Assembly (NCBI GenBank): GCA_965222605.1 | Contig: OZ244960.1 | Location: 3,616,001-3,680,000, forward strand | Source: Candidatus Latescibacterota bacterium | GTDB taxonomy: Bacteria > Latescibacterota > UBA2968 | Length of the DNA: 64,000 nucleotides | Reading direction: 5' to 3' | Shown here: piece after piece, positions 1 to 33,261 of the stretch | How positions within the stretch are numbered: the first letter of the stretch is position 1 | Layout: every line of letters begins with the position of its first letter | Made by a program: the position numbers and the translations under genes | Notes under the pieces: model-generated | Database searches by the model: none | What the model saw: the letters and a program-made list of their open reading frames with translations, nothing else | Told to the model about the DNA's origin: nothing

Positions 1-72
1 CGGCGAGATGGATCAAGATTAGTAGTCTGCATCAAGGCGTTTATAGCCTCTCGCAATAGTGACAAAAAATAA

Positions 73-101
73 TTGACACTATTTTTATATTGCCATATAT
101 T
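73..101 (+). promoter_or_regulatory. sigma70-type promoter
   Basis: TTGACA (73-78), 17-bp spacer, TATATT (96-101). Confidence 0.7.
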
Positions 102-107
102 TAGGCA

Positions 108-170
108 TTACCCCTTCAGACATTCAGTGCTGAAGCCCCCGGACTCGTTAGTGGGTCCGGGATTTTTTTT
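108..170 (+). ncRNA. candidate small leader RNA (two hairpins, second is an intrinsic terminator) upstream of an NYN fragment
   Basis: CTTCAG..CTGAAG stem (114-135), then CCCGGACTC..GGGTCCGGG stem (138-161) and a T-run, between promoter and RBS. Confidence 0.45.
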
Positions 171-192
171 GTCGTTTTAGGAGGTGTGGGTC

Positions 193-267
193 ATGCAATC
201 CTGTAAACGCACTATATTTTTTATTGACGGATTAAACGTTTACCATGAGTTTTGGGGGAAGGTGTAG
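193..267 (+). pseudogene. truncated NYN (LabA/DUF88, PIN-like) RNase, 5' fragment
   Basis: RBS AGGAGG; translates MQSCKRTIFFIDGLNVYHEFWGKV*; IFFIDGxNxYH is the first NYN catalytic strand. Confidence 0.6.
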
Positions 268-25391: not shown

Positions 25392-26690
25392 ATGTCCCAA
25401 TCATTGTTTAGCGATGCCAGTCAACGGCTCGATGAGGCCCTTGCTTATGCTTCTATTTCCGAGGAGGCGATTGAGCGGCTCAAATTGCCCAAGTCGAGTT
25501 TGAAAGTTTCTATCCCGGTGCGGATGGATAACGGCGAGTTGCGCATTTTCCCCGGCTATCGGGTGCGCTACGACGATACGCGAGGTCCCACCAAAGGGGG
25601 CATTCGCTACCACCAGGATGTGTCTATTGACGAGGTGCAGTCCCTGGCTTTTTGGATGACTTTCAAATGTGCGGTCGTCAATTTGCCCTTTGGTGGCGGC
25701 AAGGGCGGCATAACGGTTGATCCCAAGGAGTTGTCCCTTTTTGAACTGGAACGGCTCAGTCGGGGCTATATTGACGCCATGGCCGATTTTATCGGTCCGG
25801 ATATCGATATTCCCGCGCCAGATGTTTATACCAATGAGATGATTATGGGCTGGATGGTAGATCAGTACAGTATTATTAAGCGGCAGATTACGCCAGCGGT
25901 GATCACGGGCAAGCCTTTGACCATGGGAGGGAGTCTGGGGAGGGACAAGGCGACTGCCATGGGGGCCTTTTTTACTATGGAGGCGACTTTGCCCAGGCTC
26001 GGGTTGAGTGGCTCGCCCGCTACCACGACCGTGGCAGTGCAGGGTTTTGGCAATGCCGGTGCTATTATCGCCGAGTTGCTTTTTAATGCCGGTTACAAGG
26101 TCGTGGCGGTGAGCGATTCCAAGGGGGGGATATATCGACGAGAGGGTCTCGATATTCCCAGTGTGCGGCAGTTCAAGGATTCGACCCGCGCGCTCAAGGC
26201 GGTTTATTGTGAGGGTAGTGTGTGCAATGTGGTTGATTACGATACGATTACCAATGAGGAATTGCTCGCGCTCGATGTCGATATCCTGGCTCCAGCGGCG
26301 TTGGAGAACCAGATTACAGCGTCCAATGCCCGCGATATTAAGGCGAGGGCGGTGTACGAACTGGCCAATGGCCCGACTACCCCAGAGGCCGACGAGATTT
26401 TGCGTGGGCGGGATGTGATGGTGTTCCCCGATATTCTGGTCAATGCCGGCGGCGTGACCGTGAGTTATTTTGAATGGGTGCAGAATCGGCAGGGTCTATA
26501 CTGGACTCTAAGTGAGGTCAATCAGCGGCTGAAACAGAAGATGGTCGAGGAGACAGAGCGCGTTTGGGATATTGCTCAGACACAGGGTATTTCCCCGCGC
26601 ACCGCGGCTTATGTCCACGCTTTGAACAGAATCGGCGATGCGGTGCAAGCCAGGGGTACCAAGAGCTATTTCACGGGTGGGAGTGATTGA
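25392..26690 (+). CDS. gdhA: Glu/Leu/Phe/Val dehydrogenase (glutamate dehydrogenase)
   Basis: GPTKGGIRY, GGGKGG, PAPD, QGFGNAG, NAGGVTVSYFEWVQN. Confidence 0.93.
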   Translation: MSQSLFSDASQRLDEALAYASISEEAIERLKLPKSSLKVSIPVRMDNGELRIFPGYRVRYDDTRGPTKGGIRYHQDVSIDEVQSLAFWMTFKCAVVNLPFGGGKGGITVDPKELSLFELERLSRGYIDAMADFIGPDIDIPAPDVYTNEMIMGWMVDQYSIIKRQITPAVITGKPLTMGGSLGRDKATAMGAFFTMEATLPRLGLSGSPATTTVAVQGFGNAGAIIAELLFNAGYKVVAVSDSKGGIYRREGLDIPSVRQFKDSTRALKAVYCEGSVCNVVDYDTITNEELLALDVDILAPAALENQITASNARDIKARAVYELANGPTTPEADEILRGRDVMVFPDILVNAGGVTVSYFEWVQNRQGLYWTLSEVNQRLKQKMVEETERVWDIAQTQGISPRTAAYVHALNRIGDAVQARGTKSYFTGGSD

Positions 26691-26709
26691 TGTGAATGGA
26701 AATCATTCT

Positions 26710-29700
26710 ATGAATATTGGGAGAGTGTTACAGGGCGGACTGTTCACGAGCGATTTTCTCATAGATGCTGTCCAGGAGATGGACGAATGGCAGAGGTGGG
26801 ATGATGGGGCGGTACTTGAGACCGAACTTCAAAATATCTTCAATGCCTTCCCAATAGATCAGAAACCCAATGAAAGCCAGACTGAAGACGATATGATCTG
26901 GCCTATCCTCAACTGCCTCGGATGGAAAGCATACCTGCGGCAACAAAATTTGACGCCTCGTGGGCGTGATGATGTACCTGACGGCCTTTTGTTTGAGGAC
27001 GATGCACACAAGGCGCGTGCCAATGATTTCGCCGAGGAGTGGAGACGCTACGAGTGGGGCCTGGCAATTGTGGAATCCAAGCGGTGGAACCTGCCACTTG
27101 ACCGCCGATCTGCCCAGCGTACAACTGCGCCCTCAACACAGATGCTTCGTTATTTGCGTCGGGTGGATGAGTTGACCGAGGGCAAGTTGCGCTGGGGCAT
27201 ACTCACAAATGGCGCGCAGTGGCGGCTTTATTTTCAGGGGGCGCGGTCTGTTTCCGAGCAGTTTTTTGAGATAGATCTCGCGGCAGTGCTCGGTCCTGAA
27301 GGCAGTGCTTTTTCCGAGGATGAGCGACGCCACTGTTTGAAGTTGTTCGCGTTGTTTTTTGGGCGAGATGCGTTTCTGCCAGGTGCGGAGGATCCGCGTA
27401 CCTTTCACGAGCGCGTGCTCGATGAGGGGCGGTTCTATCAAGAGCGCGTGGCGAACAGTCTATCCGGGGTGGTCTTTTCTCGAGTCTTTCCCAATTTGGC
27501 CCGTGCTATTGCTGATGCTGCGCCAAATGCGCCCTTGTCAGAGGTGCGTGATGCCGCCCTGGTGTTGCTCTATCGCCTGCTTTTTATTTTATATGCCGAG
27601 GATCGCAACCTGCTACCGGTGCGCGATGATCGTTATGATGATTACGGTTTGCGCCGGGTACGCGATGATATTGGGAAGCGCAAAGCACAAGGTGATGTGT
27701 TCTCCGAGACCGCTGCACGCTATTATCCGGCTGTTGATGACCTTTGCCGCGCCATTGATGAGGGGGATTCCTCCATTGGTCTGCCACCGTATAACGGCGG
27801 CCTGTTCGACCGGAAAAGTACACCCCTTTTGGCTCAGATTAAGCTGGGCGATCAGGTGATGGCCGATGTTATTGATGCGCTTTCATTTGAGGGTGGGCGG
27901 TATATCAATTACCGCGACTTGAGCGTTGAGCAACTGGGGTCGATTTACGAGCGATTGCTCGAACACGAGGTCGTGCGCGAAGGGGACGAGATTGTGGTGC
28001 GTCCGAATGTGTTTGCGCGGAAGGGGTCGGGTAGTTATTACACGCCGGATGCTCTCGTGCGCCTGATTCTCAAGGAGACGGTTGAGCCGTTGGTGCAGGC
28101 ACGTATGGATGCTTTTGCCAAGCAGGTTGAAGAGATCGTGGGTAGTAGCGCGAGCGAGGGGTTTAAGCGAAAGGCACTCGCGCAAGTTGATCCGGCAGAG
28201 AAATTACTCGATCTGAAAATTTGCGATCCGGCAATGGGATCGGGGCACTTTTTGGTCAGTTTGGTGGATTATCTTTCCGACTACGTCATTGCAGCAATGG
28301 CCGAAGTAGATAGCGCGGGCTATGTTTCGCCACTGACTGAGCGCATTGATGCTATTCGCCAGACGATCTTGTCCAATGCCAAACAGCGCGAGTGGGCCAT
28401 AGACGAGGCACAACTCGATGACCGGCACATTGTGCGACGCATGGTGCTCAAGCGGTGCGTTTATGGGGTGGATAAAAATTCGATGGCAGTGGAACTGGCT
28501 AAGGTGTCGCTGTGGCTGCACACATTCACTGCGGGCGCGCCGCTGAGTTTTTTGGATCATCATCTGCGGTGTGGCGATAGTTTGTTTGGGTGCTGGGTTA
28601 GTCAGGGTATTAATAAGGCCATGGAAGAGGGTAGTCCCCTGTTTTTGAATGAGCCAATACAGCGGGCAACGGGGGCCGCACAAGCGATGCAGTTGATTGA
28701 GGAATTGACCGATGCAGAGATTGAGGAGGCCGGGCGTTCTGCGGAATTGTTTGCGGATATGCAGGCGGGCACGCAGCCATTGGATGCGTTTTTGTCGCTG
28801 ATTCACGCATTAGAGTGGTTGGATGTGCGGGGCAAGGAGGATAAGATCATCCTTCGCGCTTTTTTTGATAGCCTGTTCGGCAATCCCGTGGAGATTGCGG
28901 CAGGGACGGTTGAGGTGCGGATGGATGTGCCGGGGGCAGAGCGATTTGTGGAATTGCTGACTGAAGCGCGTGAACAGATTGCCCAAGAGGGCTTTATGAA
29001 CTGGCAGGTGGCGTTTCCCGGTGTTTGGCAAGATTGGCGATCTGCTACACCGCGTGGCGGCTTTGATGCGGTGATCGGCAATCCGCCGTGGGACAAGGTG
29101 AAGTTGCAACAAGTGGAGTGGTTTGCGGCGCGACGGCCTGAGATTGCTCTCGCCCAACGCGCGGCAGATCGCAAGCGTATGATTGGGGCATTGCAGAAGT
29201 CCGGCGATCCGCTATTCGCCGAGTTCGAACGAGCAGATGAACGCGCCAAGTCCGCGGGGCGCGTAGCGCGCAAATGGGGCGACTATCCCTTCTTAGCGCG
29301 TGGCGACATTAACCTGTATTCGCTGTTTGTGGAGCGGGCAATGGCACTGGTGAAGGAGGATGGCGTGGTAGGCTTGCTAACACCTTCGGGTATTGCCTCT
29401 GACAAGACAGCCGCGCCGTTCTTCCATTCGGTTTCGACAGAGGGACGATTGCGGGCGTTGTACGATTTTGAGAACCGCCGCACACGCTACACTGTGCCAC
29501 CATTTTTCCCAGATGTGGATAGCCGTTTCAAGTTCTGCGCGTTTGTGGCAAGTCCATCGCCAACTACTGATCCCGCCCGCTGCGCTTTCTTCCTTCAGGA
29601 TGTTGCGGAATTGGAAGACGAGAATAGCTGCTTCTCTCTGACGGCAGAGGATTTTGCCAGCGTCAATCCCAACACCGGCACTGCGCCCATTTTTCGCCTT

Positions 29701-30729
29701 CGCAGAGACGCGGAACTAACGACCACGATTTATCGCCATTTGCCTGTACTCGTGAATCGCTCGGCAGGTGAGGAAGTCAAGGCTTGGCCGGTGAGATACT
29801 CAACGATGTTTCACATGACCAATGACTCACACCTATTCCGCACGCGGGGGGAATTAGAAGATAATGAAGGTGCGTATCCTCTCGGAGGCAATCGCTTCAA
29901 CAGTTCGAGCGGAGAGTGGGTTCCGCTATACGAAGGTAAGATGGTACAGGCTTATGATCATCGCGCTGCTAACATAGTCGTCAACCCACAGAATCGTCAT
30001 CGCCCGGCACAGCCCGTACCGGCGACACTGGAGCAACATGAGAATGCGGATTGGCTGCCCGACCCTCAGTTTTGGGTGGCGCACTCTCAGATTCCGGCTG
30101 AAGATTTCGAATGGTGGATTGGTTGGAAAGACGTAACGGCTCCTACCAATGTTCGAACAGTCATTGCCTCAATCATACCGCAATCAGGCGTTGGTAATAC
30201 GTTCCCTGTGTTGCTCCCATTAGAGAATCCCGACGCATATGCAATGGCTGCATCACTCCTTCTGGCAAATCTGAACGCGATTCCCTTCGATTATGTCGCC
30301 CGTCAGAAGGTTCAAGGCCAGCATCTCAATTGGTACATTGTCGAACAACTCCCCGTCGTCCCGCCCGACCAATACGAGTCCACCCACTTCGGCCCTAAAA
30401 TCGCCGCCGAAATCGTCCGCGATGCTGTTCTCGAACTCACCTACACCGCCCATGACATGGCTCCCTTCGCCCGCGATCTCGGCTACGAAGGCCCGCCCTT
30501 CCAATGGGACGAGAATCGCCGTCTCCACCTCAGGGCCAAACTCGATGCCTTGTTCTTCCACCTCTACGGCATCACTGACCGAGACGACATCCGCTACATC
30601 TATTCCACTTTTCCCATCGTCGAGCGTCAGGAAACCGCCTCCCATGGCCGCTACCTCTCCCGCGATCTCTGCCTCGCATGGATGAACGCCCTCACCGCTG
30701 GGGATCCGGATGCGGAGATCGCACTATAA
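26710..30729 (+). CDS. Type IIG (Eco57I-like) fused restriction endonuclease / N6-adenine methyltransferase
   Basis: PDGLLF..VESK nuclease, GILTNG, GSYYTP, DPAMGSGHF (motif I), GNPPW (motif IV), PLYEGKM. Confidence 0.92.
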   Translation: MNIGRVLQGGLFTSDFLIDAVQEMDEWQRWDDGAVLETELQNIFNAFPIDQKPNESQTEDDMIWPILNCLGWKAYLRQQNLTPRGRDDVPDGLLFEDDAHKARANDFAEEWRRYEWGLAIVESKRWNLPLDRRSAQRTTAPSTQMLRYLRRVDELTEGKLRWGILTNGAQWRLYFQGARSVSEQFFEIDLAAVLGPEGSAFSEDERRHCLKLFALFFGRDAFLPGAEDPRTFHERVLDEGRFYQERVANSLSGVVFSRVFPNLARAIADAAPNAPLSEVRDAALVLLYRLLFILYAEDRNLLPVRDDRYDDYGLRRVRDDIGKRKAQGDVFSETAARYYPAVDDLCRAIDEGDSSIGLPPYNGGLFDRKSTPLLAQIKLGDQVMADVIDALSFEGGRYINYRDLSVEQLGSIYERLLEHEVVREGDEIVVRPNVFARKGSGSYYTPDALVRLILKETVEPLVQARMDAFAKQVEEIVGSSASEGFKRKALAQVDPAEKLLDLKICDPAMGSGHFLVSLVDYLSDYVIAAMAEVDSAGYVSPLTERIDAIRQTILSNAKQREWAIDEAQLDDRHIVRRMVLKRCVYGVDKNSMAVELAKVSLWLHTFTAGAPLSFLDHHLRCGDSLFGCWVSQGINKAMEEGSPLFLNEPIQRATGAAQAMQLIEELTDAEIEEAGRSAELFADMQAGTQPLDAFLSLIHALEWLDVRGKEDKIILRAFFDSLFGNPVEIAAGTVEVRMDVPGAERFVELLTEAREQIAQEGFMNWQVAFPGVWQDWRSATPRGGFDAVIGNPPWDKVKLQQVEWFAARRPEIALAQRAADRKRMIGALQKSGDPLFAEFERADERAKSAGRVARKWGDYPFLARGDINLYSLFVERAMALVKEDGVVGLLTPSGIASDKTAAPFFHSVSTEGRLRALYDFENRRTRYTVPPFFPDVDSRFKFCAFVASPSPTTDPARCAFFLQDVAELEDENSCFSLTAEDFASVNPNTGTAPIFRLRRDAELTTTIYRHLPVLVNRSAGEEVKAWPVRYSTMFHMTNDSHLFRTRGELEDNEGAYPLGGNRFNSSSGEWVPLYEGKMVQAYDHRAANIVVNPQNRHRPAQPVPATLEQHENADWLPDPQFWVAHSQIPAEDFEWWIGWKDVTAPTNVRTVIASIIPQSGVGNTFPVLLPLENPDAYAMAASLLLANLNAIPFDYVARQKVQGQHLNWYIVEQLPVVPPDQYESTHFGPKIAAEIVRDAVLELTYTAHDMAPFARDLGYEGPPFQWDENRRLHLRAKLDALFFHLYGITDRDDIRYIYSTFPIVERQETASHGRYLSRDLCLAWMNALTAGDPDAEIAL

Positions 30730-30791: not shown

Positions 30792-32177
30792 ATGAGTGAT
30801 GAAAAGCCTGAAAATGGGAAAAAGAGATCGCTGAGTCGTTGGGGCCGAGCCGTTTTGAGGAGGGGGAAGATACAGGTTAGTCGGTTGCTCCGCGCCATTA
30901 TGGATAGACGGTTTTGGAGGGTTTGGTTCGGGCGAATCAAGTGGTTTATCCTTGTTACAGTCAAGTGGGTTGCCTTTATCATAGTATTCTGTATATGGCC
31001 GATAGGGTTGTTGGTTCTTTTGTATGAACTCATAGTCTGTTTATTTCCATCGTTGGCTGATTTATTATCTCCATCTTTGACTGACTTATTTCCCAGTTTG
31101 AAAGACTTGTTTAACCGCGAAGCTGACCCGGATGCAGACCTGTTCAGTCGTGTGCGCGTGAACATGGTGATCCTAACAGCGTGGGTTGGTGTGTTCTTTC
31201 TTGTCTGGCGCACGAGGATCGCGGACAAGCAAACGCAAATCAATCAAGAAAGCCACTACACCGAGCTTTTTACCAAAGCAGTGGAGCAGCTTGGCGCAGT
31301 TCGTGAGATACATGGCAAGGAGCCTGAACCTGCTATTGAGATACGGATCGGCGCAATCTATTCCTTGGAGCGGCTTGCGAAGGACAGCGAGCGCGATTAT
31401 GGCCCCATCATTGAAACACTCGCCGCCTATATCCGCGAGCACTGTCGCGATCCAGAATCTTTTGATGATAAGAAATTGAGCGAAGATGAGTTAAAGCAGG
31501 CGCGGCAGAAATGGATTGATTCGCTACGTAAAAATCCTCCAGTGAACCGCTCCGATGTAGCAGCGGTCCTGACGGTACTGAGCCGCCGGGAACAGAACCG
31601 ACACTGGACCAGCACGAGCGAAAATGAGACTCAACCCGACTTCACCGGGGCAAACTTTCAGAATACAATCCTATCGGCAGTTGATTTATCGGGCGCGAAA
31701 TTTTTAAGAGCCGATTTATCGGGCGCGAACCTTGAGAAAGCCAAACTGATTGGCGCGAACCTATCAGACGCGAACCTTCGGGAAGCCAAGCTTAAGGATG
31801 CGAACCTTGCGGTAGTAGATCTATTCTACGCGGACCTTAGGCAAGCTAAGCTATCAGGCGCGAACCTTCAGGAAGCTAAACTAGTTGGTGCGAATATTGA
31901 GAAAGCTAAACTGATTGACGCGAACCTTCAGGAAGCCGAGCTTGAGGGTGCGAACCTTGCGGGGGCCGAGCTTGAGAACGCACTTCTTGTCGGAGCACAG
32001 CTTAAAGACGTGAAAGGTTTAACGGACGAGATGCTCGAAAAAACAATAGGGGCCGAAAATACTCTTTTGCCCGATGGTCTGTCTCGGCCTGCAAGCTGGG
32101 GAAGTCGGGAGGATGCGATTAAAAAATGGGAGACTTTTCTGAAAGGAAAATGGCAGGCTATTTGGGAGGGAGAATAG
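30792..32177 (+). CDS. membrane-anchored pentapeptide repeat protein
   Basis: N-terminal TM segments, FTKAVEQLG..RIGAIYSLERLA, A(D/N)LxxA repeats. Confidence 0.9.
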   Translation: MSDEKPENGKKRSLSRWGRAVLRRGKIQVSRLLRAIMDRRFWRVWFGRIKWFILVTVKWVAFIIVFCIWPIGLLVLLYELIVCLFPSLADLLSPSLTDLFPSLKDLFNREADPDADLFSRVRVNMVILTAWVGVFFLVWRTRIADKQTQINQESHYTELFTKAVEQLGAVREIHGKEPEPAIEIRIGAIYSLERLAKDSERDYGPIIETLAAYIREHCRDPESFDDKKLSEDELKQARQKWIDSLRKNPPVNRSDVAAVLTVLSRREQNRHWTSTSENETQPDFTGANFQNTILSAVDLSGAKFLRADLSGANLEKAKLIGANLSDANLREAKLKDANLAVVDLFYADLRQAKLSGANLQEAKLVGANIEKAKLIDANLQEAELEGANLAGAELENALLVGAQLKDVKGLTDEMLEKTIGAENTLLPDGLSRPASWGSREDAIKKWETFLKGKWQAIWEGE

Positions 32178-32284
32178 CGCAGGTTCCGCCAGTCTATGGG
32201 CACCATCTATGATGATTGATGACCGCAAGTTAAAAAAAGGAGACATGGATTAAATCCGTGTCTCCTTGAGTTCTAAAAAATAGG

Positions 32285-32313
32285 TTGACGTCATTGTTTA
32301 TATAGAATAATTT
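32285..32313 (+). promoter_or_regulatory. sigma70-type promoter
   Basis: TTGACG, 17-bp spacer, TAATTT. Confidence 0.55.
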
Positions 32314-32319
32314 GTTCAG

Positions 32320-32412
32320 TAACAGGACCCATCGAACCGTCGCCCGTATAGGGAATTAACGTGTGTTCGATTGTTTTTATCCCAGGGACGCCAGGTGCGT
32401 CCCTGTTTTTTT
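32320..32412 (+). ncRNA. candidate small leader RNA (hairpin plus terminator) upstream of an NYN fragment
   Basis: ATCGAAC..GTTCGAT stem, then CAGGGACGC..GCGTCCCTG and T7. Confidence 0.45.
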
Positions 32413-32421
32413 GGAGATACT

Positions 32422-32556
32422 ATGTCAGAAGACAGTTTAGCCACCCCTCAACGCTACAGAGTAAGGATATTTGTGGACTTTTGGAACTTCATTCTTTTAA
32501 ACGCTGGGCTTATCAATCGCGGCCAACGCCGTAGAGAGAACGCAAAATCGGGTTGA
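32422..32556 (+). pseudogene. truncated NYN RNase, 5' fragment
   Basis: RBS GGAG; MSEDSLATPQRYRVRIFVDFWNF, then sequence without NYN character and a stop. Confidence 0.6.
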
Positions 32557-32654
32557 CACTACTGGGTGTATTGGGATATATTTTTTAGCACAGGACGACA
32601 CCTGACAAGTTGTGATTACAGATATTTCTATGTTAGGATAAAACAAAATAAACT

Positions 32655-32804
32655 ATGGCTACGAATCCGGTTGCAAACGCGAGACTGCCCGCCAAGATGA
32701 CGCCGCTTTGGGTCATTTCTCTCTTCTTGTCTCTCACCGAAGTTATTGCGGGAATCGCCGCCACTCAGACGACGGGCAATCTCCAGGCTGCATTCGTATG
32801 GTGA
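32655..32804 (+). pseudogene. short or truncated membrane protein fragment
   Basis: MATNPVANARLPAKMTPLWVISLFLSLTEVIAGIAATQTTGNLQAAFVW*; hydrophobic, stop 3 bp before the TIR gene. Confidence 0.4.
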
Positions 32805-32807
32805 CGC

Positions 32808-33128
32808 ATGATATTCATCTGTTACTCCTGGCGTGACGCCGAAGTTGTCCATTATGTGACAAAGCAATTGTCAGGTATGGGCCGCGATGTGTGGATTGAT
32901 TCCGAGCATCTCAATCTGGATGCACCTATGGATGATCAAATTCGCCAGGCTCTTCGCAAATCTTCGAGCGTACTTCTTTTTGATTCGCCAAATTCTCGGA
33001 GTTCAGAATGGGTCAAACGTGAGTTAGCCTGGGCTAAAGGCGCGGGAATAGATATTGTGAATTGGCCGATTGAGAATGCCGAGGAACGACTTAAATGGCC
33101 TAACCAGGCACTGCAAGCGCCGATTTAA
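32808..33128 (+). CDS. stand-alone TIR domain protein
   Basis: IFICYS..D, VWID, SPNSRSSEWVKRE with catalytic-position Glu. Confidence 0.85.
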   Translation: MIFICYSWRDAEVVHYVTKQLSGMGRDVWIDSEHLNLDAPMDDQIRQALRKSSSVLLFDSPNSRSSEWVKRELAWAKGAGIDIVNWPIENAEERLKWPNQALQAPI

Positions 33129-33261
33129 TAAGGCATTGGATATGGCGAAGGTTGCCATAAAAAAACTAAAAAAGGAGATACTGGCCGGTGTCTCCTTTCT
33201 ACATTTCATCTTCTCTTTCAGTGCATGTCCTTGGGCTTTTGGCACGCACATCTGGACGCGA

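What the first reader, a model, noticed from the sequence alone, without database searches (positions are those of the whole stretch)
32285..32556. Second, sequence-divergent promoter - RNA - terminator - truncated NYN cassette
Seen: TTGACG-17-TAATTT, a ~90-nt segment (ATCGAAC/GTTCGAT stem, then a CAGGGACGC/GCGTCCCTG-T7 terminator), GGAG, and an ORF with RVRIFVDFWNF that loses NYN character right after this motif. Both copies break just after the first catalytic Asp strand while the leader stays intact. Inference: repeated acquisition and disarming of toxic NYN modules, possibly keeping the RNA as an orphan antitoxin. This copy sits in a defence-rich patch with R-M and TIR.
Basis: partly seen in the sequence, partly recalled or inferred. 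Interest (0 to 1): 0.78.

Follow-up and report, generated by a model that had tools for sequence, protein, structure and literature searches.

The report
Orphan RNA of a broken NYN module
A small structured RNA gene that normally sits in front of an RNA-cutting enzyme gene has survived here after the enzyme gene was deleted; the same RNA-enzyme pair is widespread in bacteria, plasmids and phages, matches no Rfam family, and probably works as a toxin held in check by its RNA.

Summary
Window 32276-32415 holds a promoter and a ~95-nt two-hairpin RNA that ends in a terminator. A ribosome-binding site and a 44-codon ORF follow. Only the first 25 codons of that ORF match a real 209-aa zinc-ribbon NYN RNase, which is intact behind the same leader in two sister genomes.

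The leader is not an ordinary terminator. A covariance model built from it finds the same RNA directly upstream of this NYN subfamily in 47 of 64 loci from many phyla, on 2 of 3 small plasmids checked, and on viral contigs. Covariation is strong and no Rfam family matches.

In the window's family, 12 RNA copies were found in 11 of 61 genomes. Two have an intact NYN gene, one is frameshifted and nine are deleted or truncated, at several different junctions.

After a truncation shared by two genomes, the RNA core stayed 97.5% identical while the dead ORF stub fell to 87%.

My best reading, with the mechanism inferred, is a type III-like toxin-antitoxin or abortive-infection module that lost its toxin and kept its RNA. 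RNA-toxin binding, toxicity and trans action are untested.

The parts
32276..32284 (+). A-rich left edge of the module. Homology to non-syntenic copies in other genomes starts here.
   Evidence: Matches in G007, G017, G006, G011 and G002 all begin at query base 77, which is window 32276. Alignment.
32285..32313 (+). Promoter: TTGACG (-35), 17-nt spacer, TAATTT (-10).
   Evidence: Sequence. The hexamers are kept in all copies of the genus while the spacer varies. TTGACN-16..18-NANNNT lies before the RNA in 28 of 51 loci, against 1 of 51 control stretches. The consensus scan does not call it.
32318..32415 (+). RNA gene matching model R1, about 95 nt. ACCC at 32327-32330. P1 stem 32331-32337 with 32365-32371, with an inner hairpin CCC 32343-32345 pairing with GGG 32351-32353. 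CCC at 32381-32383. Terminator hairpin 32383-32391 with 32397-32405. U7 at 32406-32412.
   Evidence: R1 match of 71 bits, E = 4.9e-16, the only one in the genome. Fold. Covariation.
32413..32416 (+). GGAG ribosome-binding site, 5 nt before the ATG.
   Evidence: kept in the intact loci.
32422..32556 (+). 44-codon ORF. Codons 1-25 (32422-32496) are the N-terminus of a zinc-ribbon NYN RNase. The rest is unrelated read-through.
   Evidence: 92% identity to residues 1-25 of the intact 209-aa orthologue. Pfam finds no family in the stub. The orthologue matches PF01936 at E = 3.1e-14. Only D19 of the conserved D19, D136, D161 and D163 is left.
32497..32512 (.). Deletion junction between the NYN stub and the TM/TIR cassette.
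   Evidence: Leader and ORF matches end at 32497. A different segment, 32512-33130, matches G013, G005, G003 and G012. G005 shows degenerate NYN codons running to about 32510.
32655..32804 (+). 49-aa remnant of a 194-aa membrane protein gene that precedes the TIR gene in G003.
   Evidence: L007:930-1514 is the intact form.
32808..33128 (+). 106-aa TIR-domain gene. A neighbour, not part of the NYN module.
   Evidence: TIR_2 at E = 1.7e-15. PADLOC ThsB-like and SAVED-TIR hits.
65..267 (+). Promoter TTGACA 73-78 and TATATT 96-101. RNA-B with hairpins 114-119/130-135 and 138-144/155-161, then U8 at 163-170. AGGAGG 179-184. 24-codon stub 193-267.
   Evidence: Bases 65-161 are 94% identical to genome 6057935-6058032. 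An intact 206-aa NYN lies behind the same leader in G002.

Best explanation
SHOWN
- Window 32276-32415 is a self-contained small-RNA gene: own promoter, about 95 nt, two hairpins each preceded by ACCC, and an intrinsic terminator.
- This RNA belongs to a conserved, covarying family found immediately upstream of one subfamily of zinc-ribbon NYN (PIN-like) RNase genes. The family occurs in many phyla, on small plasmids and in viral contigs.
- Here the NYN gene was deleted after codon 25-29. The RNA gene remained and stayed conserved.

INFERRED MECHANISM
- The pair works like a type III toxin-antitoxin or abortive-infection module.
- One promoter makes much terminated RNA and a little read-through mRNA for the NYN RNase.
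- The RNA binds, and perhaps is cut by, the RNase and keeps it inactive.
- When transcription stops, through phage attack or plasmid loss, the RNA decays and the RNase is freed.
- Because losing the RNA first would be lethal, decay proceeds toxin first and leaves orphan RNA genes.
- The orphan may then persist because it neutralises related NYN modules that arrive on plasmids or phages.
For: Intact form and identity of the protein
- The intact 209-aa ORF lies behind a 90% identical leader in G007 and G017.
- It matches NYN PF01936 at E = 3.1e-14 and PADLOC HEC-09 at E = 3.3e-14.

The RNA family
- R1 matches on the + strand just upstream of the NYN gene, at E <= 0.01, in 45 of the 62 loci searched. 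With the two sister-genome loci that makes 47 of 64.
- On 52 aligned matches, 91% of cells pair and 18 of 20 pairs carry compensatory changes. No shuffle of 500 reaches this, and slid controls pair 31-53%.
- On the independent MAFFT alignment of 24 sequences, 86% of cells pair and 14 of 21 pairs are compensatory.
- A promoter motif precedes the RNA in 28 of 51 loci, against 1 of 51 controls.
- In one search, 42 of 59 loci had the C-N-GGG...CCC-N-G hairpin upstream. In most of these its end lies 14-33 nt from the start codon, with a full range of 1-102 nt. This is the type III TA layout.

Mobility
- The RNA-NYN pair is on plasmids of 6.3 and 11.8 kb.
- It is in viral contigs next to endolysin and virion genes.

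Toxin-first decay
- 12 RNA copies were found in 11 of 61 related genomes. Two have an intact NYN, one is frameshifted and nine are deleted or truncated.
- The broken copies show eight different states at at least four loci.
- The genome-collection scan found no copy of this NYN subfamily without the RNA in this clade.
- The second RNA family shows the same pattern, 5 intact of 15.

Constraint on orphans
- Among 6 orphans the RNA core is 95.6% identical, against 78% for the promoter and 5' region.
- G000 and G019 share the truncation. Their core is 77/79 identical, the dead stub 66/76 (Fisher p = 0.016) and the stub plus post-junction DNA 194/233 (p = 0.0008).

No cognate NYN is left in this genome.

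Precedent
- AbiF/RCd22 is a toxic nuclease neutralised in cis and in trans by an upstream ncRNA that carries two motif copies (abstract read).
Against: - No experiment bears on toxicity, RNA-protein binding or trans action.
- The only tested relative by name, HEC-09, gave no phage defence. That paper mentions no RNA (passages read).
- The RNA is not a tandem-repeat array like ToxI. TRF finds nothing; there are only two ACCC-plus-hairpin sub-units.
- The toxin fold differs from that of all known type III toxins.
- Orphan retention is ascertained through the RNA itself, so loci that lost both parts are invisible.
- The leader has been lost at the same locus in G005, and is absent beside the TIR cassette in G003, G012 and G013. 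G014's terminator arm is partly deleted.
- The selection test rests on one pair with a shared truncation and on 79 sites.
- Expression is not shown. Metatranscriptome contigs cover the leader (X17: 32330-32500). They are contigs, DNA carry-over is possible, and one contig from another run extends 261 nt upstream of the promoter.
- 17 of 64 NYN loci have no R1 match.
Confidence: 0.5

Rival explanations
1. The RNA is a purely cis-acting leader: a protein-binding autoregulatory element or riboswitch-like attenuator that sets read-through into the NYN gene. Orphan copies are relics that have not yet decayed and have no function of their own.
For: - The RNA is always on the same strand, immediately upstream, with the terminator mostly 14-33 nt before the start codon.
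- The invariant GGG/CCC inside the terminator stem would fit a recognition site embedded in an expression platform.
- Some orphans are decaying or lost: the G014 terminator arm, and G005 without a leader.
- The 44-aa stub is not conserved; G019 has a stop at codon 21.
Against: - The orphan RNA core is much better conserved than the adjacent promoter spacer, stub and post-junction DNA.
- Orphans keep intact -35 and -10 hexamers and all helices.
- I found no alternative antiterminator pairing. The only candidate is 3-4 bp, ACCC with GGG, and it involves invariant bases.
- A metabolite switch on a mobile RNase gene carried by plasmids and phages has no obvious rationale.
Confidence: 0.3
2. The RNA is an independent regulatory sRNA with cellular targets of its own. 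NYN genes merely tend to be inserted or carried downstream of it.
For: - It has its own promoter and terminator.
- It persists without NYN in 9 of 12 copies in the family.
- The U-tailed terminator hairpin is typical of trans-acting sRNAs (general knowledge, recalled).
Against: - Outside this family the RNA was seen almost only with the NYN gene. Examples are 47 of 64 NYN loci, and 2 of 141 genomes in another bacterial family, both with an intact NYN.
- It travels with NYN on plasmids and phages.
- Different NYN subfamilies carry their own matching RNA types.
- The distribution is sporadic and mobile, unlike a core regulator.
Confidence: 0.08
3. It is an ordinary terminator of the upstream gene plus a chance promoter-like match and a chance short ORF, or the truncation is an assembly error.
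For: The promoter scan does not call the site, and terminator-like sites are only about twice the expected number.
Against: - The upstream pentapeptide gene ends at 32177 and has its own 12-bp hairpin at 32232-32266.
- The R1 match has E = 4.9e-16, with cross-phylum covariation.
- An intact orthologue lies behind the same leader.
- The same junction is in G019 and in contigs of an independent run.
Confidence: 0.02

Closest known systems
Type III toxin-antitoxin systems (ToxIN, CptIN, TenpIN). Properties recalled from the literature, not read here.
   Same: One promoter, then an RNA gene, then an intrinsic terminator, then directly the gene of an endoribonuclease. Found on plasmids and phages. 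Sporadic, mobile distribution. The expected decay order leaves the RNA behind.
   Different: - The toxin is a zinc-ribbon NYN/PIN-like domain, not the ToxN/AbiQ fold.
- The RNA is a single ~95-nt two-hairpin molecule, not an array of 34-40-nt tandem repeats.
- Binding, processing and toxicity are untested.
AbiF (Abi_2) with ncRNA RCd22 in Clostridioides difficile, bioRxiv 10.1101/2025.04.15.648962 (abstract and outline read).
   Same: A structured ncRNA with two copies of a conserved motif lies upstream of a toxic nuclease gene. It is reported to act in cis and in trans by direct RNA-protein contact, and it is prophage-borne.
   Different: - The protein family differs: Abi_2/HEPN-like there, NYN here.
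- The RNA differs: no match to the Rfam abiF motif or to any other family.
HEC-09, a NYN/MARF1-like candidate defence gene of PADLOC, bioRxiv 10.1101/2024.01.29.577857 (passages read).
   Same: A single-gene NYN protein with a zinc ribbon, found in defence islands. The intact orthologue hits the HEC-09 profile at E = 3.3e-14.
   Different: - The match covers only profile positions 87-174 of 203.
- The paper reports no defence activity and no associated RNA.
- The N-terminal RIFVDFWNF signature and the leader RNA are not described there.
Orphan antitoxins and anti-addiction modules of type II TA systems (recalled).
   Same: An antitoxin gene is kept after toxin loss, and may protect against related incoming toxins.
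   Different: Here the retained gene would be an RNA. Protection is only inferred.

Membership tests
NYN domain (PF01936), applied to the window ORF | Significant match to the Pfam NYN profile | tested here: not met
   The 44-aa ORF matches 0 families at E <= 10. No PF01936 hit falls in the window. The intact orthologue meets it at E = 3.1e-14.
NYN domain (PF01936), applied to the window ORF | Full set of conserved acidic residues and the zinc ribbon: D19, C110, C113, C120, C123, E132, D136, D161, D163 in 51 family members | tested here: not met
   Only residues 1-25, and so only D19, are present. It is a remnant of the N-terminus, not a functional domain.
Type III toxin-antitoxin | Toxin of the ToxN/AbiQ/CptN/TenpN endoribonuclease fold | tested here: not met
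   Pfam gives NYN only. PADLOC gives HEC-09 and NYN, with no ToxN-type model.
Type III toxin-antitoxin | Antitoxin RNA encoded as tandem direct repeats upstream of the toxin | tested here: not met
   TRF finds no array in 32200-32700. The RNA has two ACCC-plus-hairpin sub-units, clearest in L064 and L066. A third NYN gene at 1905 kb does have repeated 64-nt units.
Type III toxin-antitoxin | Intrinsic terminator between the RNA and the toxin gene, with a single upstream promoter | tested here: met
   Hairpin plus U-tail within 60 nt of the ATG in 37 of 59 loci. The conserved hairpin is present in 42 of 59. Promoter before the RNA in 28 of 51 against 1 of 51 controls.
Type III toxin-antitoxin | The RNA binds and inhibits the toxin, and the toxin processes the RNA | not testable with these tools
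   No RNA-protein modelling or experiment is available.
Rfam families, including the abiF motif and known sRNAs or riboswitches | Match at the family's gathering score | tested here: not met
   0 matches in the 64-kb window. Only chance-level hits at E-value thresholds. In 8 related loci the only hit is a tRNA.
Riboswitch or transcription attenuator | A conserved alternative (antiterminator) pairing mutually exclusive with the terminator, and occurrence only in front of regulated genes | tested here: inconclusive
   No alternative helix appears in RNAalifold or in single-sequence folds. Conserved orphans exist without a downstream gene. An exhaustive search for alternative pairings was not made.
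PADLOC HEC-09 | Full-length match to the HEC-09 profile | tested here: inconclusive
   E = 3.3e-14, but only residues 116-200 against profile positions 87-174 of 203.

The most novel reading that the evidence does not exclude
A new, widespread class of RNA-antitoxin (type III-like) toxin-antitoxin or abortive-infection systems. In it, subfamily-specific two-hairpin RNAs (ACCC-hairpin-CCCC-hairpin-U tail) neutralise zinc-ribbon NYN RNases. Orphan RNA genes left after toxin loss, in chromosomes and also in phage contigs, would be kept by selection as immunity or counter-defence against related NYN modules. This would parallel phage pseudo-ToxI.
Probability: 0.4. Interest if true: 0.85.

Novelty: new variant of a known kind. 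Interest (0 to 1): 0.75.

Why it matters
If the RNA is the antitoxin, this adds a fourth toxin fold (NYN/PIN-like) and a non-repeat RNA architecture to RNA-neutralised toxin systems.

It would give a function to a conserved structured RNA family that matches nothing in Rfam 15.

It offers a concrete reason why the NYN candidate HEC-09 showed no activity when tested: the balance between RNA and protein may matter.

It would provide natural examples of orphan RNA antitoxins under selection, including on phage contigs.

Whatever the mechanism, the RNA family, its structure and its tight link to one NYN subfamily are directly usable for annotation.

Tried and rejected
- The word-indexed protein search with the 44-aa ORF against longer proteins found no candidate.
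- blastn and tblastn of the leader and the stub in the own genome found only themselves. My first tblastn, used the wrong frame.
- Rfam gave nothing usable.
- A sequence search of the PDB with the intact NYN gave 0 hits at E <= 1.
- Expression: one look at three metatranscriptome runs and one other run. RNA-library contigs cover 32330-32500 (X17) and 32311-32411 of a G002-type orphan (X18). They are contigs, cannot show ends or strand, may be DNA carry-over, and the X18 contig runs 261 nt upstream of the promoter. I count this as no evidence either way.
- Model R1 does not detect the copy-1 RNA, so a common origin of the two RNA types rests only on a resemblance seen by eye.
- I considered an integron attC-like or cassette-exchange explanation for the sharp left edge of the module and for repeats flanking NYN genes. 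No integrase, array or recombination site was found, and I did not pursue it.
- I considered that the stub peptide is functional. I rejected this because G019 has a stop at codon 21 and the other orphans lack the ORF.
- No fold or complex prediction was run. No tool here handles RNA-protein pairs.

Full report
1. OBSERVATION

- -35 TTGACG at 32285-32290, a 17-nt spacer, and TAATTT at 32308-32313.
- A stem ATCGAAC/GTTCGAT at 32331-32337 and 32365-32371.
- A terminator hairpin CAGGGACGC/GCGTCCCTG at 32383-32405, followed by seven T.
- GGAG at 32413-32416 and ATG at 32422.
- A 44-codon ORF ending at 32556 that contains RVRIFVDFWNF.

The consensus scan lists the terminator but not the promoter. 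Its site counts are near expectation, so it proves little by itself. The predicted RNA 32320-32412 folds at -31.2 kcal/mol, z = -3.08.

The upstream pentapeptide-repeat gene ends at 32177 and has its own hairpin at 32232-32266. The structures in the finding are therefore not that gene's terminator.

Pfam sees no family in the 44-aa ORF. The genome's four PF01936 matches all lie outside the window.

2. WHAT THE ORF IS

A DNA search of 41 related genomes found the promoter-leader segment, from window 32276 on, at 87-91% identity in several genomes.

In G007 and G017 an intact 209-aa ORF follows it. That ORF matches NYN PF01936 at E = 3.1e-14 and PADLOC HEC-09 at E = 3.3e-14.

The window ORF matches residues 1-25 only, at 92% identity.

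An alignment of 51 family members shows these conserved positions: D19, a C-x2-C...C-x2-C zinc ribbon (C110, C113, C120, C123), E132, K133, D136, D161 and D163. Only D19 survives here.

From 32512 on, the DNA is a different segment. It is a membrane-protein plus TIR cassette that is found intact (194 aa + 106 aa) and without the leader in G003.

The junction is also present in G019 and is bridged by contigs of an independent run. It is real.

No other gene of this NYN subfamily is in the genome.

3. WHAT THE LEADER IS

A scan of one genome per species found 64 loci encoding this NYN subfamily. They come from Latescibacterota, Rhodothermales, Alphaproteobacteria, Dehalococcoidia, Anaerolineae, Myxococcota, Planctomycetota, Acidobacteriota, Actinomycetota and other phyla. 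Nearly all proteins begin with RIFVDFWNF.

Upstream hairpins:
- 37 of 59 loci have a hairpin with a U-rich tail within 60 nt of the start codon.
- 42 of 59 have a hairpin of the form C-N-GGG...CCC-N-G with compensatory variants.

Alignment and model:
- A MAFFT alignment of 24 leaders (A1) gave a two-domain structure.
- The first domain is stem P1, enclosing a small inner hairpin. The second is the terminator hairpin. Each is preceded by ACCC or CCCC.
- On A1, 86% of cells pair and 14 of 21 pairs have double changes. No shuffle of 500 reaches this, and slid controls pair 31-51%.
- Covariance model R1 matches on the + strand just upstream of the NYN gene, at E <= 0.01, in 45 of the 62 loci searched. 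Adding the two sister-genome loci gives 47 of 64.
- The 17 loci without a match are mainly Solirubrobacterales, Nannocystaceae and Desulfovibrionaceae.
- On 52 model-aligned matches, one of which is a spurious minus-strand row, 91% of cells pair and 18 of 20 pairs are compensatory. This alignment is fitted to the model, which favours the structure.

Other properties:
- A TTGACN-16..18-NANNNT promoter lies just before the RNA in 28 of 51 loci, against 1 of 51 control stretches.
- No Rfam 15 family matches the RNA here or in eight other loci.
- In the window's genome, R1 hits only this site.
- The protein family is modest in size: 279 clusters at E <= 1e-10 among 1.84 billion representatives.

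4. MOBILITY

The RNA-NYN pair lies on a 6.3-kb Novacetimonas plasmid and an 11.8-kb Pararoseomonas plasmid. An Aeromonas plasmid NYN gene had only a minus-strand hit.

All 3 IMG/VR contigs found with the protein carry the pair, one of them beside endolysin and virion genes.

In a sample of 141 genomes from the family that holds locus L029, the RNA occurs in 2. Both have an intact NYN gene.

5. REPEATED LOSS OF THE NYN GENE WITH THE RNA KEPT

R1 found 12 copies in 11 of 61 genomes of the window's class. All are in its family. Downstream of them:
- Intact NYN: G007 and G017 copy a.
- Frameshifted: G021. A sequencing error cannot be excluded.
- Cut after codon 25-29: G000 and G019. They share the junction, and G019 has an extra stop.
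- Cut about 19 nt into the ORF: G017 copy b and G006, at different loci.
- Cut right after the U-tail: G002 and G011.
- Internal deletion fusing the start to the last ~30 codons: G010.
- No ORF: G018.
- Deletion reaching into the terminator arm: G014.

Flank comparison groups these copies into at least four loci plus G021. That means at least five independent inactivations.

The retention is not absolute. At the window's locus, G005 keeps a scrap of the NYN ORF but no leader. G003, G012 and G013 have no R1 match.

The census is also biased, because it starts from the RNA.

In three viral contigs from different samples the RNA is followed by an identical 44-aa stub cut after RIFVDF. Three other viral contigs have the intact gene.

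6. IS THE ORPHAN RNA CONSTRAINED?

Among six orphan copies the RNA core is 95.6% identical on average. The promoter and 5' region is 78% identical. The hexamers and all helices are kept.

G000 and G019 inherited the same truncation. Their identities are:
- RNA core: 77/79.
- Dead stub: 66/76 (Fisher p = 0.016 against the core).
- Stub plus post-junction DNA: 194/233 (p = 0.0008 against the core).

This is one pair and few sites. It points to purifying selection on the RNA after the toxin gene was lost.

7. THE OTHER COPY

Window 65-267 holds a different RNA, which I call RNA-B. It reads ACCCC, hairpin CUUCAG/CUGAAG, CCCC, hairpin CCCGGAC/GUCCGGG, U8. A 24-codon stub follows it.

Its promoter and RNA are 94% identical to a second copy at 6,057,935. 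That copy precedes another NYN gene, which is split by an IS5-like element.

Of 15 copies inspected in relatives, 5 are followed by an intact NYN gene of 206 or 220 aa, with PF01936 at E = 3e-14 and 3e-9. The other 10 are truncated, interrupted or deleted.

A third NYN gene at 1,905 kb is flanked by three copies of a 64-nt two-hairpin unit.

So each NYN subfamily in this genome has its own structured RNA. RNA-B resembles R1 in layout, but R1 does not detect it.

8. MECHANISM

Shown:
- An independent, conserved, structured RNA gene with its own promoter and terminator.
- Tight linkage to one NYN RNase subfamily.
- Carriage on mobile elements.
- Repeated loss of the protein gene with the RNA retained.

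Inferred: a type III-like toxin-antitoxin or abortive-infection module.
- Abundant terminated RNA neutralises the small amount of NYN RNase made by read-through.
- The RNA is the labile partner.
- Decay must go toxin first, which explains the orphans.
- Orphans may protect against related incoming modules.

The layout matches ToxIN (recalled). It also matches the recently described AbiF/RCd22 pair, where an upstream ncRNA with two motif copies acts in cis and in trans (abstract read).

Against this reading:
- No functional data exist.
- HEC-09 was inactive in the one published test.
- The RNA is not a repeat array.
- The selection evidence is thin.
- RNA-seq contigs are uninformative.

The main rival is a purely cis-acting autoregulatory leader whose orphans are relics.

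9. LITERATURE

Full-text searches:
- 'NYN domain' + 'type III toxin-antitoxin': 0 papers.
- 'NYN' + 'RNA antitoxin': 1 paper, a type II review, listing only.
- 'NYN' + 'candidate structured RNAs': 1 paper, a CRISPR study, listing only.
- 'NYN domain' + 'toxin-antitoxin' + 'small RNA' + 'terminator': 0 papers.
- 'NYN' / 'RNA motif' / 'intrinsic terminator' / 'riboswitch': none of the 15 listed papers contains NYN.
- 'HEC-09': 7 papers. Of these I read only passages of the defining preprint.

Supplements of bioRxiv preprints could not be seen. The library lacks most subscription journals, so an earlier description cannot be excluded.

10. VERDICT

This site is an orphan member of an RNA family that matches no Rfam model, that I found described in no paper searched, and that is coupled to NYN RNases. 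I rate it a new variant of a known kind (RNA-controlled toxin modules). Interest is 0.75. Confidence in the antitoxin mechanism is about 0.5.

Noticed in passing
It holds a different promoter-RNA unit, with two hairpins each preceded by CCCC and a U8 tail, followed by a 24-codon NYN stub. An intact 206-aa NYN lies behind the same leader in G002. Of 15 copies in relatives, 5 are intact.
   Followed up: yes
genome C1:6057935-6059840 (L109): A second copy of the copy-1 RNA, 94% identical over 98 nt, with two extra hairpins. It precedes an NYN gene that is split by an IS5-like element encoding a 352-aa DDE transposase.
   Followed up: partly
genome C1:1905390-1906320 (L120:791-1719): A third, intact 203-aa NYN gene is flanked by three copies of a 64-nt two-hairpin unit. 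Two copies lie upstream, 103 nt apart, and one lies directly downstream. This arrangement is closer to a repeat-type RNA antitoxin array.
   Followed up: partly
window 32553-33128: A TTGACA-18-TATATT promoter-like site, then a 49-aa remnant of a 194-aa membrane protein gene (intact in G003), then a 106-aa TIR gene. The TIR cassette is therefore also partly degraded here.
   Followed up: partly
L129, L134, L135 (IMG/VR contigs): Three viral contigs from different samples carry the R1 RNA followed by an identical 44-aa stub cut right after RIFVDF, next to a P63C-domain gene. This is an orphan RNA on a phage-like element and could be a counter-defence decoy.
   Followed up: partly
window 247-251 and 32497-32512; L129: Three unrelated truncations end within a few codons after the first beta-strand and its Asp motif. 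At window 247-251, G000 and G019 share the cut but have different DNA to its right. I have no explanation. Other relatives are cut elsewhere.
   Followed up: partly
L010:3405-3480 (G017): Directly downstream of the intact NYN gene lies a partial extra copy of the promoter and roughly the first 35 nt of the RNA, joined to unrelated small ORFs.
   Followed up: no
L113 (G080) compared with L087 (G021): The RNA and NYN of one genome from the family that holds L029 resemble those of the Latescibacterota genome G021 more than those of its own relatives. This hints at transfer between phyla.
   Followed up: no
window 26638-30729: A 1363-aa type IIG restriction-modification or DrmMI-like gene (PADLOC E = 1e-68 to 1e-90). 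With the TIR gene it forms a defence islet of about 7 kb between glutamate dehydrogenase and an HpcH aldolase gene.
   Followed up: partly
window 33168-33198: A hairpin of about 31 nt (GGAGATAC...GTCTCC type) matches at 86-91% in many places of related genomes (query 965-1000). It is the same hairpin that follows the orphan leaders in G002, G006 and G011.
   Followed up: no
L029:2066-2137: A tRNA gene lies about 230 nt upstream of the RNA-NYN module in Rhodophyticola porphyridii. It may be an island integration site.
   Followed up: no
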